NCBI RefSeq assembly: GCF_009914755.1 | Contig: NC_060935.1 | Source: the human T2T-CHM13v2.0 reference genome, Homo sapiens | DNA length: 64,000 nucleotides | Strand: one strand, 5' to 3' | In this document: positions 1 through 50,825 of the stretch, piece after piece | Layout: each line of letters opens with the position of its first letter | Position numbering within the stretch: position 1 is the stretch's first letter | Translations under genes and position numbers: made by a program | Notes under the pieces: generated by a model | Database searches by the model: none | The model's input: the letters and a program-made list of their open reading frames with translations, nothing else | Told to the model about the DNA's origin: nothing

Positions 1-579
1 TGAAAGAAGCTGTGTAAATAGGACCCGCAGCCCTGTTGGAGGGAGGGACCCTCTTGATGAATCTAACACAACAGCGCACTTCAGACAGAGACAACTGGGA
101 CACTGGGCTCCAGGGAGGCTTAGCAGAAATCTCTGTGACCCATGGGTCACTGGGACCTGGTGCACATGTCTCCCAGTCACAGGGACCTGGAACTTCTGCC
201 CCAGCTCCAAACCCTACTTGCTCTGGAGTACTGGCTACTATAGACATAGGTCAGTTAATCTTGATGACACAGTTTCAGAAGCCTCAGAATGTCTTCTCCT
301 GTTTTGAGGTCCCCTTGGGGCCTCCTGTCGGAGTGTAGGCTAGAGCTTGGGCAGTTGGCTGCAAGGCTCAACAGAAGGGAAAGGGAAGCGTTCATCAGGT
401 TTCCCTCATCCCTTGCTTGGTCTTTGCAAGAGCCTCTGCCTTCCCTGCCTAAAAGTGGTTTTGTTCTAGGTGGGAGGAGAGAGAGGGTACGAGGTGTGGA
501 GTATAGGCAGGGCAGTTTGCCGGGAGTCTGGGCCTGTATATTCCTACAAGCAGTACCAGGTTTAAAAGATCTGAGTGGG

Positions 580-992
<413 letters not shown>

Positions 993-11477: not shown

Positions 11478-12751
11478 TGAGGGTCTTCAATAAATTCATG
11501 AAAAATGCATATTGTGAAAAACTAGGCATAGAGTTCAATTTTTTCTACCAAAATAAACTTATACTAACTTGTTATAACATGCCTGAACAGAAACTAGTTT
11601 AAGGCACTAAAGAGGATAAGACCTAAGTTTGAAAAGAGCCTCTATTAGAGCAACATTAATTCTGCTAAAATTGAAGCAAGAACAAACATCACATTTATAG
11701 TGAAGTTTGGGTGGAAGAGTGGTGAAATCACTGATGCTTTATGAAAAGTTTATGGGTATTAAGTCATAAAGAAATCAGCAGTTTACAAAAGAATAACTCA
11801 TTTTAAGAGAGGATGAGACAATGATAAAGATGAAGTCTGTAGCGGCAGACCATCCACACCAAGTTATAAGGAAAAAAACTCATCTCGTTTATGCCCTAAT
11901 TGAAGAGGACAAACAATTAACATTAGAAACAATAGCTGTCATCATAGACATCTCAATTGGTTCAGCTTACACAATTCTGACTGAAAAATTAAAATTGAAC
12001 AAAGTTTCCACTTGATGAAACTCAAAACTGTTGCATCCAGATCAGCTACAAAGAGCAGAGCTTTCAATGAGAATTTTAAACAAGTGAGATCAAGATCCAG
12101 AAACATTTCATCAAAAAATTGTAACAGAAGATGAAACACGCCTTTACCAGTATGATCCTGAAGACAAAGCACAATCAAAGCAATGGCTACCAAGGGGTAC
12201 AAGTGGTCCAGCCAAAGCAGATGAGTCAAGAGTGAACATCATGGCCATAGTTTTGGGGAATGCTGAAAGCATTTTCCTCATTGGCTTCCTGAGGGCCAAA
12301 GAATGATAGCATCTGCTTATTATAAGAGTGTTTTGAGAAATTTAGCCAAAACTTTAGCAGAAAAGTGCCTTGGAAAGCTTCACAAGAGAGCCCTTCATTT
12401 ACCACGATGCTCCTGCTTATTTCTCTCAACAAACAAGGGCAATTTTGTGAGAGATGGGAAATCATTAGGCACCCATCTTACAGTGCCGATTTTGTTTTTT
12501 CTGATTTCTTTTTGTTTCCTAATATTAAAAAGATCTTTAAGGGACGCCCATTTTTCCTCAGTTAATAGTTTCAAAAAGACTCCATTGACATGGTGAAATT
12601 CCCAGGACCAGTTCTTTAGGGATGGACTAAATGGCTATCATTGATTACAAAAGTGTCTTGAACTTGGTGGAGCTTATGTTGAGAAATAAAATTTATAATT
12701 TTTATTTTCATCTTTTAATTTTGCTTTTCCACAAACTTTTTGAAGCCCTCC
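11478..12751 (+). mobile_element. HSMAR2 mariner, full length, defective transposase (copy 1)
   Basis: TIRs tgagggtcttcaataaattcatgaaaaatg / ttttccacaaactttttgaagccctcc; TA on both sides (11476-77, 12752-53); decayed transposase with SGRP, IVTEDET and HPSYSAD (YSPDL) motifs; many stops and frameshifts. Confidence 0.92.
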
Positions 12752-12990: not shown

Positions 12991-13296
12991 AGGAGAGGGT
13001 TGGGTAAGAACTTGTGTAACTATGTTATCGTAAATTACCTCAACCCGTGACAAGTAACCTAGTGCTATCCAACTAGGAATGAGAGAAAAATCATTGAAAC
13101 AAAAGAAACGTTTAAATTAAAATAAAATATTATGTGTTTATTATATAACAATGCTTTGTTTTAAAACTAAAGGGGAACTTTTAAGTGCTTTACCATTGAC
13201 TAGGTCACTCTGGTGGCACTGCATTAACAAACCTCAATGTCAAGCCTCACTTCCCTGTGTTTCTCTGAGTAACCATTTACGCTTTGCTGAGAAGTA

Positions 13297-13322
13297 CAGT
13301 CATGCACCGCATAACAACATTT
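13297..13322 (+). mobile_element. Isolated Tigger3 left terminal inverted repeat
   Basis: TA (13295-96) then cagtcatgcaccgcataacaacattt; matches the Tigger3b left end at 14139 (caatcatgcccagcataatgacattt) and is inverted to ...catgactg-TA at 15350. Confidence 0.85.
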
Positions 13323-14038
13323 GTGCAATATCAAATGACGGGCACTTCCAATGGAAATGGAGAGTGGCTACCGTCCAACTCAGCAGAGAGGGAGAGAAAG
13401 CCTCCCCCTATTTCATGTGGTCAGCCGGAACAAAGCCTTCACCACTGGTTAGTTTACAAAGGGCACAACTAAGACAGACACGCATATTTGCATTCGTCAC
13501 ATGGTGTTATTGTAAGCACAGTCAGAAATGCTTCGGGCTAGGAGGAAAATGTAATTTTATTACTTCCCACTGTCAAAGAAACAGCCCGCAACTGAAAGAG
13601 ACCTCACCTTGATGCACTAAAAGCAAACCACTCATTCCTAAAGATGAATTTGGGCAACAACATTTTGCAAAACTTACTGTAACACAAATGATTCCTGCCC
13701 TAAAAGCCCATAACCCTAAAGCCTATAACACTTCCTTTCAGTACCCAAATAATGATGGCATTATCCCTAAAAGCTTGATTGTGAGTGTCCCTTTGGTCAA
13801 GAGGCTGAGGTGGGAGGATCACTCGTGCCCAGGAGTTTAAGGCTGCAGTGAGCTATGATTGAGCCACTGTACTCCAGCCTGGGCAAAAGAGTAAGACCCT
13901 GTCTCAAAAAAAAAAAGAAAAAGAAAAGAAAAGAAAAGTGTCTCTTTGGTGATTTAAGAGAGCTCCCAAAGGGATGCCCCAATCCAGTCTCTCAGCCAAA
14001 GACATTGTGCAGCAGGGCCCCTCTTCCTCTCCTGGTTG
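13322..14038 (+). repeat. Duplicated non-repeat host segment, copy 1 (inverted paralogue of 21710-22282)
   Basis: Hand alignment; also visible as near-identical translations in ORFs 13151-13612(+) and 22007-22240(-). Confidence 0.95.
13798..13936 (+). mobile_element. Truncated AluJ/FLAM-type monomer present in copy 1 only
   Basis: gctgcagtgagctatgatt (J-type); TSD agtgtcc/tctttggt at 13784-13797 and 13937-13950; absent from the 21.8-kb paralogue. Confidence 0.85.
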
Positions 14039-14138
14039 ACTGCCCACTCTTCCTGAAGCTTCCCTGAGCTTCCTGCCTGTCATGATAATGCCCTTTACTC
14101 TACCTATGGGGCTTTCCCTTGGAGTGGCTAGGGAACTA

Positions 14139-15350
14139 CAATCATGCCCAGCATAATGACATTTCAGTGAACTACTGACCACGTATACGACAGTGGTCCT
14201 ACAAAATCATAATGGAGCTGAAAACTTCCTATCCCCTAGTGACATTGTAGCCATTGTAACATAGTCATAGGGCAAGGCATTACTCATGTGTTTGTGAGGA
14301 TGCTGGTTTAAACAAACCTACTATGCTGCCAGTTATATAAAAGTATAACACATACAGTTATGTACAATACATACTTGAAAATAATAATAAACCGCTATGT
14401 TACTGGTTTATGTATTTGTTATAGTATATTTATATCATTATTTTAGAGTATACTACTTGTACTTACAAAAAAATAATTAACTATAAAACAGCCTCAGGCA
14501 GGCCCTTTGGGAGGTACCCAGAAGAAGGAATAATATCATAGGGGATGAGAGCTCCATGTGTGTTACAGCCCCTGAAGACCTTGCAGTGGGACAAGATGTG
14601 GAGGGAAGGCAGTGATATTGATGATTCTCATCCTGTGTAGACCTAGGCTACTGTGTGTGTTTGTCATTGTTTTTAACAAAAAAGTTAAAAAAGTAAGAAA
14701 AAAATGTAAAAATAGAAAAAAGTTTATAGAATAAGAATTTAAAAAAAGAATTTTTTTTTTACAGCTGTACAATGTGTTTGTATTTTAGGCTAAGTTATTA
14801 CAAAAGAGTCAAAAAGTTTAAAAAATTAAAAACTTTATGAATTACAAAAGTCACAGTAAGCTAAGGTTAATTTATTATTAAAGAAAGAAAATATATTTTA
14901 CATAATTTTAGGGTAGCCTAGGTGTACAGTGTTTATAAAGCCTACAGTAGTATACAGTAACATCTTAGGCTTTTACATTCACTCACCACTCACTTACAGA
15001 CTCACCCAGAGCAACTTCCAGACCTGCAAGCCACATTCATGGTAAGTACCCTATACAGGTGTGCCATTTTTCATTCTGAGTACCGTATTTTCAGTGAACC
15101 CTTTTTATGTTTAGATATGTTCAGATACACAAATACTTACCATTGTGTTACAACTGCCTACAGTATTCAGTAGAGTCACATGCTCCAGGTTTGTAGCCTA
15201 GGAGCACTAGGCTACACCACACAGCCCAAGTATGTAGTAGTCTGTATCATCTAGGTTTATGTAAGCACACTGTGATGTTTACACAAAGACAAAATCGCCT
15301 AGCGATGCATTTCTCAGAACGTATCCCCATCTTTAAGTGACCCATGACTG
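14139..15350 (+). mobile_element. Tigger3b (MER7B/GOLEM_B) non-autonomous pogo-family element, full length
   Basis: TA-caatcatgcccagcataatgacatttc ... gcatttctcagaacgtatccccatctttaagtgacccatgactg-TA; 1212 bp. Confidence 0.88.
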
Positions 15351-15827: not shown

Positions 15828-18800
15828 TTCTCAATATAAGCTCCACCAAGTTCAAGACACTTTTGTAAGCAATGATAACCCTTTAGTCCATCCCTAAAGA
15901 ACTGAGGGTCCTGCAAATTTAGCCATGTCAGTGCAGCCTTTTTGACAGTATTAACTGAGGAAAAATGGGCGCCCTTTAAAGATTTTTTTAAGATTAGGAA
16001 ACAAAAAGAAACCAGAAAAACCCAAATCAGAACTGTAAGGTGGATGCCTAATGATTGCCTGTTAAGACTCTTATAAAATTCCCCTTGTTTGATGAGAGAA
16101 ATGAGCAAGAGCATTGTGATGGTGGTGAAGGACTCTCTGGTGAGGCTTTCCCAGGCACTTCTCTGCTGAACATCAATGCGAAAATCCTCAATAAAATACT
16201 GGCTAACCAAATCCAGCAGCACATCAAAAAGCTTATCCACCACAATCAAGTCGGCTTCATCCCTGAGATGCAAGGCTCGTTCAACATACACAAATCAATA
16301 AACGTAATTCATCACATAAACAGAACCAATGACAAAAACCACATGATTATCTCAATAGATCCAGAAAAAGCCTTTGATAAAATTCAACACCCCTTTATGC
16401 TAAAAACTCTCAATAAACTAGGTATTGATGGAACATATCTCAAAATAATAAGAGCTATTTATGACAAACCCATGGTCAATATCATACTGAATGGGCAAAA
16501 ACTGGAAGCATTCCCTTTGAAAACCAGCACGAGACAAGGATGCCCTCTCTCACCACTCCTATTCAACATAGTATTGGAAGTTCTGGTCAAGGCAATCAGG
16601 CAAGAGAAAGAAATAAATGGTATTCAAAAAGGAAGAGAGGAAGTCAAATTGTCTCTGTTTGCAGATGACATGATTGTATATTTAGAAAACCCCATCGTTC
16701 CAGTCCAAAATCTCCTTAAGCAGATAAGCAACTTCAGCAAAGTCTCAGGATACAAAATCAATGTGCAAAAATCACAAGCATTCCTATACACCAATAACAG
16801 ACAGAGAGCCAAATGGAGGGAACTCCCATTCATAATTGCTACGAAGAGAATAAAATACCTAGGAATCCAACTTACAAGGGATGTGAAGGACCTCTTCAAG
16901 AACAACTACAAACTACTGCTCAAGGAAATAAGGGAGGACACAAACAAATGGAAAAACATCTTATGCTCATGGATAGGAAGAATCAATATTGTGAAAATGG
17001 CCATACTGCCCAAAGTAATGTATAGATTCAATGCTATCCCCATCAAACTACCATTTGACTTTCTTCATAGAATTTAGAAAAAAACTACTTTAAATTTCAT
17101 ATGGAACCAAAAAAGAGCCTGTATAGCCAAGACAATCCTAAGCAAAAAGAACAAAGCCAGAGGCATCATGCTACCTGACTTAAACTATACTACAAGTTTA
17201 CAGTAACCAAAACAGCATGGTGCTGGTACCAAAACAGATATATAGATCAATGGAATGGAACAGAGGCCTCAGAAAAAGTGCCACACATCTACAACCATCT
17301 GATCTTTGACAACCCTGATGAAAACAAACAATGGGGAAATGATTCCCTATTTAATAAATGGTGTTGGGAAAACTGGCTAGCCATATGCAGAAAACTGAAA
17401 CTGGACCTCTTCCTTACACCTTATACAAAAATTAACTCAAGATGGATTAAAGACTTAAACGTAAGACCTAAAACCATAAAACCCTAGAAGAAAACCTAGG
17501 CAATATCATTGAGGACATAGGCGTGGGCAAAGACTTCATGACTAAAACATCAAAAGCAATGGCAATAGAAGCCAAAATTGACAAATGGGATCTAATTAAA
17601 CTAAAGAGCTTCTACACAGCAAAAGAAACTAGCATCAGAGTGAACAGGCAACCTACAGAATGGGAGAAAATTTTTGCAATCTATCCATCTGACAAAGGGC
17701 TAATATCCAGAATCTACAAAGAACCTAAACAAATTTACAAGAAAAAAACAAGCAACCCCATCAAAAAGTAGGAGAAGGATATGAACAGGCACTTCTCAAA
17801 AGAAGACATTTGTGCAGCCAACAAACATATGAAAAAAAGCTCATCATCACTGGTCATTAGAGAAATGCAAATCAAAACTACAGTGAGGTACCATCTTATG
17901 TCAGTTAGAATGGTGATCACTAAAAAGTCAGGAAACAAAAGATGCTGGAGAGGATGTGGAGAATTAGGTACTCTTTTACACTATTGGTGGGAGTGTAAAT
18001 TAGTTCAACCATTGTGGAAGACAGTGTGGTGATTCCTCAAGGATCTAGAACCAGAAATACCATTTGACCCAGCATTCCCATTACTGGGTATATACCCAGA
18101 GGATTATAAATCATCCTACTCTAAAGACACACGCACATGTATGTTTATTGCAGCACTGTTCACAATAGTAAAGACTTGGAAGCAACCCAAATGCCCATCA
18201 ATGATAGACTGGATAAAGAAAATGTGGCACATATACACCATGGAATTCTATGCAACCATAAAAAAGGATGAGTTCATGTCCTTTGCAGGGACATAGATGA
18301 AACAGGAAACCATCATTCTCAGCAAACTAACACAGGAAAAGAAAATCAAACACCACATGTTCTCACTCATAAGTAGGTGTTGAACAATGAGAACACATGG
18401 ACACAGGGAGGGAAACATCACACACTAGGGCCTGTAGGTGGTTGGGAGTCTAGGGGAGGGATAGCATTAGGAGAAATACCTAATGTAGATGACGGGTTGA
18501 TGGGTGCAGCAAACCACCATGGCACATGTATACCTATGTAACAAACCTGCATGTTCTACACATGTATCCCATAACTTAAAGTATAATAAAAAAATTTTTT
18601 TTTTAAAAAGCTTTGGCTTTCTCAAAACACTCTCATAATAAGCAGCTGCTATCATTCTTTGGCCCCCCGGAAAGTCAACAAGCAATATACCTTGATCATC
18701 CCCAGAAACTATTGCTGTGACTCTTACTCTTGACTGTTCTGCTTTGACTTTGGCTGGACCGCTTCCACCTCTTGGTAGCCATTGTTTTGACTGTGCTTTG

Positions 18801-19496
18801 TTTTCAGGATTGTACTTATGAGTACAAAAGCCACATTTTATCTCCTGTTACAGTTCTTTGAAGAAATTCTTCAGAATCTTGACCTTGCTTATTTAAAATT
18901 TCCATTGATAACTCTGCTGTTACATGTAGCTAATCTGGGTGCAATGGTTTTGGCACCCACCAAGTAGAAAGCTTTACTCAACTTTAATTTTTCAGTCAGA
19001 ATTGTGTAAGCCGAACCAAGTGAGATGTCTGTAATGTTGGCTATTGTTTCTGATGTCAATTGTTTGTCCTCTTCAATTATAGCCCAAACAAGATGAATTT
19101 TTTTCCTTACAAATTTATGTGGATGGTCTGCTACTGCAGACTTTAACTTTATCATTGTTTCATCCTCTCTTAAAATAAGTTATTCATTTGTAAACTGCTG
19201 ATTTTTCTGGCATCATCCCCATAAACTTTTCACTAAGCATCAGTGATTTCACCATTCTTCCACCCAAACTTCACTATAAATGTGATGTTCGTTCTTGCTT
19301 CAATTTTAGCAAAATTATTGTTGCTCTGAAAGAGGCTCTTTTCAAATGATGTCGTAGCTTTCTTAGTGTTTCATGCTAGATCCTATTCAGAAATGTTACA
19401 AGAAGTTAGTAAGAGTTTATTTTGGTGGGAAAAAAAGAACTCTATGCATAGTTTTTTCATAATATGTATTTTCCATGAACTTTTGGAAGATCCCTG
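15828..19496 (-). mobile_element. HSMAR2 mariner copy 2; lacks right TIR; split by L1 (pieces 15828-16167 and 18607-19496)
   Basis: Left TIR cagggatcttccaaaagttcatggaaaat on minus strand; ORFs 18889-19155, 18467-18685 and 15821-16291 carry transposase fragments; ends abruptly at ...gcttatattgagaa. Confidence 0.92.
16168..18606 (+). mobile_element. L1PA7-like, 5'-truncated (ORF2 RT domain to poly-A)
   Basis: [10 protein letters not shown] and FADD RT motifs; 3'UTR gtagatgacgggttgatgggtgcagcaaaccaccatggcac; ttaaagtataataaaaaaa. Confidence 0.93.
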
Positions 19497-21064: not shown

Positions 21065-21385
21065 AATGTGATGTCAGTTGATGGCGACTCCATCTATGTT
21101 AGTTCTCAGCCCGAGGACTTGGAGTCATCCTTGACTCCTCTTATTTTCTTACATTTCACTCAGGTAATCCCACTGGTTCTACAGAATCCAGAAATCTACC
21201 ACACGTCACCACCTCCACTGCCACTACCTAGGTGCAAACCCCCTTTTCTCTCACCTGCACATCAGTGGCTCTAATGGGTCTGTCTGCTGTCACACTCACC
21301 CCTGCAGTGTTTTCCACATAGCAACAATGTGACCCTGTTAAAAGGTGAGGCAGAGAGTGTTGCTTTTCTGCTAGGAACCCTCTAA
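21065..21385 (+). mobile_element. L2 remnant truncated at the Tigger3b end
   Basis: ggacttggagtcatccttgactcctctt ... tctaccacacgtcaccacctccactgccactacc. Confidence 0.75.
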
Positions 21386-21387
21386 TG

Positions 21388-21709
21388 TAGTCATACTTTG
21401 CTTAACAAGGATACGTTCTGAGAAATGCATCATTAAGCAATGTATACACATTTATCCAAACATAGAAAAGGTGCATTAAAGATACAGTATAAAAAGTTTA
21501 AAAATGGTACACCTGCATAGGGCACTTACTATGAATGCAGCTTGCAGGACTGGAAGTTGTTCTGGGTGAGTCGGTGAGTGAGTGGTGAGTGAATGTGAAG
21601 GCCTAGGACATTACTGTACACTACTGCAGACTTTATTAAACACTGTACACTTAGGCCACACAGATTTATAAACTTATTTTTCTTTCTGTAATAAAAAAGT
21701 AACCTTAGC
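21388..21709 (-). mobile_element. Tigger3b right-end fragment with internal deletion
   Basis: tagtcatactttgcttaacaaggatacgttctgagaaatgc (right TIR); body aligns to 14860-15130; region equivalent to ~15131-15294 missing. Confidence 0.88.
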
Positions 21710-22282
21710 CAACCAGAGGAGGAGGAGGAAGAGGGCTGTGCTGCCTGGTGTCCGCAGCTGAGAGACTGGATTGGGGTGCCCCTTTGGGAGCTCTCTGAAA
21801 TCCCCAAGGGACACTTTGAAGGGAGCTATTTATCCATAATCAAGGAGCTGTGGTTAATGCCATCCTTATTTGGGTACTGAAAGGAAGTGTGACCTTCTTT
21901 AGCGGTTATAGGCTTTTAGGGCAAGAATCATTTATGCTACAGTAAGTTTTGCAAAATGTTCTTGCCCAAATTCATCTTTAGGAATGAGTGGTTTGATTTT
22001 AGTGCATCAAGGTAAGCCCTTCTTTGTTTGAGAGGGAAAAATAACAAAATTACATTTTCCTCGTAGCCAGAAGCATTTCTGACTGTGCTTACAATAACAC
22101 CATCTGATGAATGCAAATGTGTGGGTCTGTCTTAGTTGTGCCCTTTGTAAACTAACCAATGGTGAAGGCTTTGTTCCAGCTGACCACATGAAATAGGAGG
22201 AGGCTTTCTCTCCCTCTCCACTGAGTTGGAGGGCAGCCACTCTCTATTTCCATTGGAAGAGCATGTCACCCGATATTGCACA
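21710..22282 (-). repeat. Duplicated host segment, copy 2 (probable native copy); candidate cis-regulatory element
   Basis: Reverse complement aligns to 13322-14038; continues into unique DNA beyond 22282; carries octamer, SOX-, FOX-, TEAD-like and CArG motifs. Confidence 0.9.
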
Positions 22283-22899
22283 GACTGGGATGAACACAAG
22301 AGGCCTTTATCTTGGTTACTGGATCACAGTCCTGTGCAATTTTCATTACCTGATTGGCTGCAAGAGAAGGGAAGAGTTTCCCAAGGAAGCCACAGATATG
22401 AGAGCACTCCCAGGAATTCAAAGACCTCTTAGTTAGGGGCACTGGCCGTCCCTATTGTGAGCAAAGACCAATGCCATTTTTTACCTAACAAAGCTCACAC
22501 TAGTGTATGGGTGCTGTGTGGGGAGTGGCATGTGTATGTGTATGTGATACTCCCAGGATCTATATAGTTTATCCTCTTTTTATACTTCAAAAATATTTTG
22601 GAAAGGAACTTCTCTACAATGTGCCTCGAGCTGCTTCCTGTTCCCATTTCCCTGCATAAACACAGGGTTGCTTCTGTGAATAAAACAAAAACCACCTCAG
22701 AAAGCAAAGTCTAACAGGCACAGGAACCTCAATCCGTGTGCCAGCTGCCTGCCTCCCATCAGGAGGGAAGGATATATACCCCATATATATTGAGCATTTA
22801 TGGTGAACCAGACACTTTGCATGTTACTTACCTTAAACTTTGAGTCTTATGATCTCTTCTATAGGGTGCACTTTTGAGATAGGTTATCTGAAACTGCAG

Positions 22900-50203: not shown

Positions 50204-50489
50204 TTGCATGCAGGCCATTCTCAGTCCAGCTTCAGAGTCACAGGCTGTCATTCCCCACATGTAAACTCCAACCACACCAAATATCTTTCAGTTCCCAGAC
50301 ATGTTCTGCCCCTCACCTCTCTGGCTTTGCATGGCATGCTTCCTGCCACTGCCTGGAACTCCCTTTCTCCTCCTTTGACCTGGAAAACTCCTACATATCC
50401 ATGAGTACACTTACCCATGGAGGGTGTGCACCCTACACTTTGCACACTTACAATTACAGCACTTCCCACACTGTATAAGAGTTAGTTTA

Positions 50490-50825
<336 letters not shown>

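What the first reader, a model, noticed from the sequence alone, without database searches (positions are those of the whole stretch)
21915..22260. Core of the duplicated segment is better conserved than co-duplicated DNA: candidate twin enhancers
Hand counts: 13345-13558 vs 22046-22259 has 15 mismatches in ~214 bp and no indels (~93%). 13607-13713 vs ~21905-22012 has about 6 in 107 (~94%). The co-duplicated Tigger body is ~88% at best with indels, and the rest of the host segment is indel-ridden. Motifs intact in both copies: octamer ATGCAAAT (22111-18 / 13486-93), SOX-like ACAATAA, CTTTGT and AACAAAG, FOX-like TGTAAAC, TEAD-like GGAATG (21981-86), palindrome TTTTGCAAAA (21947-56) and E-box CACATG. 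Inference: a regulatory element was duplicated by a transposon and both copies stayed under constraint. Gene conversion between the inverted arms, or faster CpG decay in the Tigger, are alternative explanations.
Basis: partly seen in the sequence, partly recalled or inferred. Interest (0 to 1): 0.7.

Follow-up and report, generated by a model that had tools for sequence, protein, structure and literature searches.

The report
Transposon-copied DNA with slowly changing core
About 0.8 kb of non-coding human DNA upstream of the clock gene BMAL1 is present twice, 8 kb apart and inverted, with one copy sitting inside an old DNA transposon; a 320-base core differs between the copies about three times less than the rest, likely because selection has kept a predicted regulatory element in both copies, though gene conversion could also explain it and no enhancer activity is shown.

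Summary
The segment matches only these two places in the genome search. Copy A lies inside a TA-flanked Tigger3b-like composite: 26-nt terminal piece, host DNA, whole element. Copy B (22 kb) is the likely parent.

With CpG-type sites masked the core differs at 13/307 sites, the rest at 40/214, unrelated Tigger copies at 16.9%. The excess is therefore not CpG decay, but it weakens to p=0.07 when clustered mismatches count once.

The Tigger pieces share no excess derived changes, so 'co-duplicated Tigger' is unproven. An old-class Alu inside A dates the duplication as old.

'Parent conserved, copy neutral' fits poorly: total divergence is below one neutral branch, and most changes map to B.

Motifs are present but not kept or enriched beyond chance, and RefSeq lists no element at either copy.

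Verdict: real, old, Pack-TIR-like duplication. Constraint on both copies about 0.40, conversion 0.27, captured copy only 0.17, other 0.16. Orthologue trees and chromatin data would decide.

The parts
13295..13296 (+). TA at the outer left end of composite copy A (likely target-site duplication)
   Evidence: sequence
13297..13322 (+). First 26 nt of a Tigger3b-like element (5' terminal repeat piece); absent from copy B
   Evidence: matches the majority of 38 other copies' 5' ends except at CpG-type positions
13323..13344 (+). Junction zone: 10 nt of host, then a patch partly resembling the element's continuation (possible second template switch)
   Evidence: 6 mismatches in 23 to B; only a 6-nt exact match to the element; inferred, weak
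13345..13558 (+). Core block 1, copy A (captured copy); holds 5 CpGs, none shared with B
   Evidence: 15/214
13559..13606 (+). Diverged linker with 15-nt indel
   Evidence: 11/33
13607..13713 (+). Core block 2, copy A
   Evidence: 6/107
13714..13782 (+). Flank 1; mismatches mostly in two clusters, one repeating a 10-mer from 13698 (local templated replacement, inferred)
   Evidence: 14/69, 4 events
13798..13936 (+). 5'-truncated old-class Alu arm with 14-nt target duplication (13784-13797, 13937-13950); site empty in B. 'AluJ-like' is a recalled name
13937..14038 (+). Flank 2; neutral-level divergence, several TG/CA swaps
   Evidence: 19/101; total branch 0.18
14039..14136 (+). Unique host DNA kept only in A (likely deleted from B)
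   Evidence: 1 match in the genome search
14139..15350 (+). Whole 1212-nt Tigger3b-like element with TA on both sides (14137-8, 15351-2); family name recalled, length agrees with 1231 in PMC8277862 supplement
21388..21709 (-). 3' remnant of a Tigger3b-like element joined directly to host DNA, with a further internal loss of about 175 nt; exact outer end uncertain by 2 nt
21710..21905 (-). Flanks of copy B (likely parent), without the Alu
21906..22012 (-). Core block 2, copy B
22046..22259 (-). Core block 1, copy B; runs on past 22282 into unique DNA with no transposon end

Best explanation
A host segment of about 0.8 kb is duplicated, inverted and 8 kb away, into a Tigger3b-like transposon, likely by template switching early in primate evolution, and its 320-base core has changed about one third as much as the rest, likely because purifying selection acts on a predicted regulatory element in both copies. 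Steps: (1, shown) A = TA, 26-nt element end, host segment, TA, whole element, TA; B = the same host segment joined to a 3' element remnant and running on into unique DNA. (2, inferred) Two elements lay inverted about 6-8 kb apart; synthesis that began in A's 5' end switched to B's flank, copied the host DNA and the start of B's element, and resolved on element homology. (3, order inferred) An old-class Alu entered A; B lost about 100 nt of host and about 720 nt of element. (4, shown under a simple model) Core divergence is 0.062 against 0.18 for flank 2, the Tigger pair and a neighbouring mariner-like pair, with most core changes mapping to B. (5, inferred) Both copies, A more strictly, were kept as redundant distal enhancers; the target (BMAL1 141-150 kb away, or a nearer lncRNA) is untested.
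For: Only two places match in the genome search. Junction anatomy. Masked core 13/307 vs 40/214 and 16.9% for 150 unrelated Tigger pairs. Simulations with post-hoc core choice at per-lineage rates 0.067-0.095: P(core<=13) is 0.52-0.96 for both copies at 30% of neutral, 0.03-0.34 for parent frozen, 0.003-0.05 for parent at 30%, 0 of 400 for neutral. The Alu clusters with 13 old arms (6/89 from their majority, 0 of 9 CpG kept) rather than 39 younger arms (13/89), so a very young duplication is unlikely. Placing all core changes on A costs 3.7-8.7 lnL units while both control pairs peak at an even split; bootstrap 1, 0 and 0 of 400. Two slow blocks separated by a fast linker are natural for constraint. 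No conversion signal in the Tigger arms (3 shared-derived sites vs mean 3.5) or the inverted mariner-like pair (lowest 29 in 307 columns).
Against: No outgroup or chromatin data could be reached. RefSeq lists no functional element at either copy (hub annotation). Motif retention is at chance (4 lost vs 5.2 expected, P=0.37; 3 vs 4.6, P=0.30) and density is ordinary (19 vs 14.1 +/- 3.7; 14% of 180 tiles as high). Mismatches are evenly spread (longest run 34 vs 49.9 expected), not patchy. The event-level contrast is only p=0.07. An even split between copies is itself reached in just 1, 10 and 4 of 400 bootstraps, so symmetric constraint fits only moderately. Block sizes and about 4% divergence match published conversion tract length (250 bp) and plateau (4.5%) (10.1101/135152). 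At a per-lineage rate of 0.05 the models cannot be told apart.
Confidence: 0.4

Rival explanations
1. Gene conversion between the inverted arms reset the core at about one third of the duplication's age; indels, the Alu and the ends of homology left the linker and flanks unconverted. GC-biased repair from B into A would leave the excess of A-strong/B-weak differences. No function is needed.
For: Blocks of 214 and 107 nt and 4.2% masked divergence resemble a mean tract of 250 bp and a 4.5% plateau (10.1101/135152). Conversion among neighbouring Alus acts within about 10 kb (PMC8230782 citing earlier work). Even spacing of mismatches and no motif protection. Fast patches lie next to indels and ends. 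12 A-strong vs 5 B-strong differences.
Against: The same paper finds conversion slows and stops as copies diverge, and its local-threshold model (400 bp of perfect homology) behaves like no conversion; uninterrupted homology here is at most 460 nt. Two tracts or a later scrambling of the linker are needed. No homogenisation in the Tigger arms, flank 2 or the mariner-like pair. Clear Alu conversions were 98 of 68,097 loci.
Confidence: 0.27
2. Hand-over: the captured copy A took over a predicted regulatory role and stayed near the ancestral sequence, while the parent B, which also suffered a deletion beside it, relaxed towards neutrality.
For: Best fit puts 0-25% of core changes on A. The bootstrap reaches the observed polarity in 167 of 400 with an A-like ancestor and all change on B. 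ABC accepts 43-53 of 2500 for B-only at 0.042-0.067 vs 7 of 2500 for an even split. A keeps 5 CpGs, B 1.
Against: B's branch (at most 0.062) is shorter than a neutral branch (about 0.09); a one-copy-frozen model gives P(core<=13)=0.03-0.18 at rates 0.075-0.095 (read by symmetry). Polarity without an outgroup can be mimicked by GC-biased conversion or germline hypomethylation of A. It is one test among several; flank 2 leans the other way.
Confidence: 0.17
3. Ordinary history: a younger duplication (about 5% per lineage) whose flanks are inflated by clustered templated changes and CpG loss, with either no constraint or constraint on the parent only.
For: Flank mismatches are clustered and one cluster copies a nearby 10-mer. 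Event-level contrast p=0.07 and scan not significant. At rate 0.05 neutral gives P=0.045 and parent-only 0.49-0.85. The Alu date rests on 89 columns. PMC8277862 finds 22 of 33 human Pack-TIRs arose after DNA transposons went silent.
Against: At rate 0.05 the observed 36 flank mismatches together with the low core are reached in 1 of 400 (neutral) and 0 of 400 (parent-only) runs. Flank 2 gives 0.18 like the transposon pairs. Old-class Alu. Parent-only constraint is contradicted by polarity.
Confidence: 0.16

Closest known systems
Single-copy Pack-TIRs formed by gap filling (PMC8277862)
   Same: Host DNA between two pieces of one TIR element, TA at the outer ends, single copy, parent within 15 kb on the same chromosome; Tigger3b is a recurrent carrier there.
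   Different: Older and more diverged (87% overall); the parent abuts the same element family; the right-hand piece is a whole element with its own TA; the breakpoint lies at the terminus. The published pipeline excludes such cases, and this locus is not among the 33 human entries.
End-bypass (transduction) by TIR elements (as described in PMC8277862)
   Same: Parent copy is linked to the element; the flank travels with it.
   Different: A's outer end is a true 26-nt element terminus that B lacks, not a flank sequence used as a surrogate end.
Duplicate or shadow enhancers (10.1101/2025.04.09.648062; PMC13345019)
   Same: Nearby homologous non-coding pair; 3,336 human duplicate pairs with 30-40% of those tested evolving asymmetrically; duplication signs in 33.9% of mouse shadow sets.
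   Different: Those are defined by chromatin or activity data, absent here; birth by capture into a DNA transposon is not among the routes named in the abstracts and sections I read.
Non-allelic gene conversion between duplicates (10.1101/135152)
   Same: Tract scale and residual divergence.
   Different: Estimated for long duplicates under 5% diverged; here the arms are short and the flanks 18% diverged.

Membership tests
Pack-TIR (PMC8277862 criteria) | Two pieces of the same TIR element flank the insert, each covering at least 10 nt of a terminus | tested here: met
   13297-13322 and 14139-15350
Pack-TIR (PMC8277862 criteria) | Insert 100-5000 nt with a unique parent | tested here: met
   about 815 nt; one other place in the genome search
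Pack-TIR (PMC8277862 criteria) | At least 90% identity and 80-120% length relative to the parent | tested here: not met
   72/550 mismatches; about 815 vs 573 nt because of the Alu and B's deletion
Pack-TIR (PMC8277862 criteria) | No TE within 100 nt of the parent | tested here: not met
   Tigger remnant abuts B at 21709; so it works like a Pack-TIR but is outside the published set
Pack-TIR (PMC8277862 criteria) | Microhomology at the switch | tested here: inconclusive
   1 shared T at 13322/22282 and a mosaic-looking patch
Pack-TIR (PMC8277862 criteria) | Empty element at the orthologous site of outgroup primates | not testable with these tools
   no other mammalian genome held (header)
End-bypass transduction | Distal end derives from the parent's flank | tested here: not met
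   B has no element end at 22283-22308
Tigger3b | About 1231 nt, terminal inverted repeats, TA duplication, dispersed copies | tested here: met
   1212 nt, TA both sides, many copies at 72-84%
Tigger3b | Match to the library consensus | not testable with these tools
   no repeat library; the name is recalled
Duplicate or shadow enhancer pair | Homologous sequence near the same gene | tested here: met
   hub annotation
Duplicate or shadow enhancer pair | Binding motifs kept beyond chance | tested here: not met
   (low power: 21 differences)
Duplicate or shadow enhancer pair | Enhancer chromatin or activity in both copies, same target gene | not testable with these tools
   no RefSeq element at either copy; PMC13333887 supplement unreadable
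Duplicate or shadow enhancer pair | Slow branches on both copies | tested here: inconclusive
   total branch 0.062 vs 0.18, but no outgroup
Gene-conversion tract | Paralogues cluster within a lineage | not testable with these tools
   needs primate orthologues
Duplicated coding exon or structured RNA | Frame open in both copies, or an Rfam match | tested here: not met
   0 of 12 block-frame combinations are open in both copies; no Rfam match in either core

The most novel reading that the evidence does not exclude
A DNA transposon captured a working distal enhancer of the BMAL1 region in an early primate, and the captured copy was not only kept but became the more constrained one, giving primates a second or replacement enhancer that other mammals lack.
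Probability: 0.25. Interest if true: 0.68.

Novelty: new member of a known kind. Interest (0 to 1): 0.4.

Why it matters
Captured DNA in animal TIR elements has been studied for transcripts and proteins: the word 'enhancer' does not occur in the main text of PMC8277862, and a search for Pack-TIR with enhancer returned one plant review. A dated case in which both a captured element and its parent stayed constrained would show a transposon-linked route to redundant enhancers. Its position 141-150 kb upstream of BMAL1 makes it directly testable. If it is conversion instead, it is a clean example of late conversion between short inverted arms, of modest interest.

Tried and rejected
CpG decay in the Tigger as the cause: rejected, the contrast persists after masking. 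Core as an unannotated repeat family: only two places match (the search can miss old or common words). Coding exon or RNA family: rejected. One large inversion including the mariner-like pair: rejected, the order of parts differs. Tigger as co-duplicated clock: no shared-derived excess.

An attempt to confirm B as parent by showing that an old repeat (L2-like by eye, name recalled) runs from B's left flank into A's 14039-14136 piece failed for lack of power: the model drifted into Tigger or stayed at 4 sequences and did not recognise even B's flank (one search found only the self match). It is no evidence either way.

Templated origin of the linker changes: no match over 9 nt. Pfam on 4 mariner-like frames gave no informative family. 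Alu dating from 20 best genome hits was set aside as biased toward the query, in favour of 52 unselected arms.

Searches for this locus in print gave listings only and none describing it. Supplements of PMC13333887 (unreadable) and of 10.1101/2025.04.09.648062 (not seen) list duplicated human elements and could hold it.

Full report
1. Observation. Self-comparison of the window shows inverted matches 13322-13766/22282-21852, 13935-14033/21817-21720 and 14860-15117/21709-21453. The genome search with the host segment finds only these two places. All eight named motifs are in both copies.

2. Anatomy. Copy A reads TA (13295-6), the first 26 nt of a Tigger3b-like element, host DNA (13323-14136), TA, a whole 1212-nt element, TA. 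The family name is recalled; the length agrees with 1231 nt in the supplement of PMC8277862. A 5'-truncated Alu arm with a 14-nt target duplication interrupts A, and B has the empty site. Copy B, on the minus strand, runs from unique DNA through the host segment into a 3' remnant of the same element family, and has no element end where A's begins. About 100 nt of host are present only in A. The simplest reading (inferred) is that B is the parent, that synthesis starting in A's element switched to B's flank and resolved on element homology, and that B later lost the host/element junction. My attempt to confirm direction with an old repeat spanning the site lacked power.

3. Clock. I aligned A's and B's Tigger pieces with 55 other copies (58 loci fetched, 3 exact duplicates dropped). 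A is 157/1195 and B 43/322 from the majority; they differ at 71/322 and share 3 derived bases, against a mean of 3.5 in 1315 unrelated pairs. So they are either independent insertions or were copied while the family was active; co-duplication is not shown. The Alu falls with 13 old arms (6/89 from their majority; members average 10.7%), not with 39 younger arms (13/89), and keeps 0 of 9 CpGs. In a CpG-aware pair model total divergence is about 0.18 for flank 2 and the Tigger pair, 0.185 for a neighbouring mariner-like pair and 0.062 for the core. The duplication is thus probably about as old as the element, though the Alu date rests on 89 columns.

4. Is the slow core real? With CG sites and TG/CA swaps masked: core 13/307 (4.2%), rest 40/214 (18.7%), Tigger A/B 35/246, 150 unrelated Tigger pairs 16.9% on average, mariner-like pair 123/838 and 39/322. 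Scans that allow post-hoc boundaries give p=0.007 and 0.003, and 1 and 0 of 150 control pairs reach them. Against this, flank mismatches are clustered: merged within 3 nt the contrast is 12/307 vs 15/195 (p=0.07) and the scan is null (p=0.91, 0.82), though the merging also halves the control divergence. One cluster repeats a nearby 10-mer. I take the slow core as real but its edges as partly shaped by complex events.

5. Which copy is slow? In simulations with the core chosen afterwards (400 runs each), at per-lineage rates 0.067-0.095 neutrality never gives 13 or fewer; parent frozen gives 0.34-0.03; parent at 30% of neutral gives 0.05-0.003; both at 30% give 0.96-0.52. At 0.05 the models are not separable on the core alone. 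Direction of change adds information: 12 differences are strong in A and weak in B, 5 the reverse; A has 5 private CpGs, B 1, none shared. Placing all changes on A costs 3.7-8.7 lnL units, an even split 0.7-1.5, while both control pairs peak at an even split and flank 2 leans toward A. In bootstraps with three assumed ancestors the observed polarity is reached in 1, 0 and 0 of 400 (all on A), 1, 10 and 4 (even) and 3, 167 and 57 (all on B). The default story, parent conserved and copy decaying, is therefore disfavoured, and the captured copy looks closest to the ancestor. This is a composite-likelihood result without an outgroup; GC-biased conversion into A or germline hypomethylation of A could mimic it.

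6. Motifs. With 40 recalled consensus motifs, 13 of B's 17 and 13 of A's 16 instances are shared; losses equal chance (P=0.37, 0.30), density is 19 against 14.1 +/- 3.7 in 180 tiles, and the longest perfect run is 34 against 49.9 expected. No frame is open in both copies and Rfam finds nothing in the cores. RefSeq lists no element at either copy (hub annotation). 'Enhancer' rests only on slow non-coding evolution.

7. Conversion. 10.1101/135152 (passages and section 7) gives a 250-bp mean tract, a 4.5% plateau under continuous conversion, and escape as copies diverge. PMC8230782 (abstract and passages) reports 98 clear cases in 68,097 Alu loci and cites a range of about 10 kb. The block sizes fit. 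But two tracts are needed, homology is short, and neither the Tigger arms, flank 2 nor the inverted mariner-like pair (lowest 29 in 307) show homogenisation. It remains the main rival.

8. Known systems. PMC8277862 (abstract, sections 7, 8 and 14, passages, supplementary file 10 whole, file 7 rows for all 15 chr11 and 23 of 27 Tigger3 places) describes single-copy Pack-TIRs made by gap filling from nearby DNA. This locus works like one but fails three of its filters (identity, length ratio, element beside the parent) and is not among the 33 human entries. Duplicate enhancers are common: 10.1101/2025.04.09.648062 (part 1 of 5 and passages), PMC13345019 (abstract and section 11), PMC13333887 (abstract and passages; BMAL1 and ARNTL do not occur in its main text; supplement unreadable). 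PMC5753468 (passages) only lists family names. Searches returned no listing describing this locus; unseen supplements could.

9. Verdict. The feature is real and better explained by constraint involving the captured copy (both copies 0.40, captured copy only 0.17) than by conversion (0.27) or an ordinary young duplication or parent-only constraint (0.16). These odds are my judgement from the tests above and rough priors. New member of a known kind; interest 0.40, rising to about 0.68 if the captured copy proves to be an active enhancer of the BMAL1 region.

Noticed in passing
window 11481-12733 (+) and 15828-19493 (-): Two mariner-like elements (HSMAR2-like, name recalled) face each other around copy A; the second is split by an L1-like insertion at about 16165-18610. 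They are 81% alike over 875 nt, at the top of the 76-80% seen for long matches elsewhere, so a local hop is possible. No low-divergence block.
   Followed up: partly
window 578-891 and 50483-50803: Two Alus 50 kb apart match at 302 of 305 columns: two young insertions of one subfamily, or a conversion.
   Followed up: no
window 13323-13344: The left junction of copy A looks mosaic (element, host, element-like, host), suggesting more than one template switch; only a 6-nt exact match supports it.
   Followed up: partly
window 13937-14038 and 21710-21816: Several TG/CA swaps between the copies suggest a CpG-rich ancestral patch that decayed independently in both.
   Followed up: partly
window 13697-13775: In copy A a 10-mer at 13698 recurs at 13765 and a similar unit follows at about 13715, where B has other sequence: local templated replacements.
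   Followed up: partly
window 21110-21387 and 14039-14136: By eye B's left flank looks like an old L2-type repeat that may continue into the piece kept only in A, which would fix B as the parent; profile tests lacked power.
   Followed up: partly
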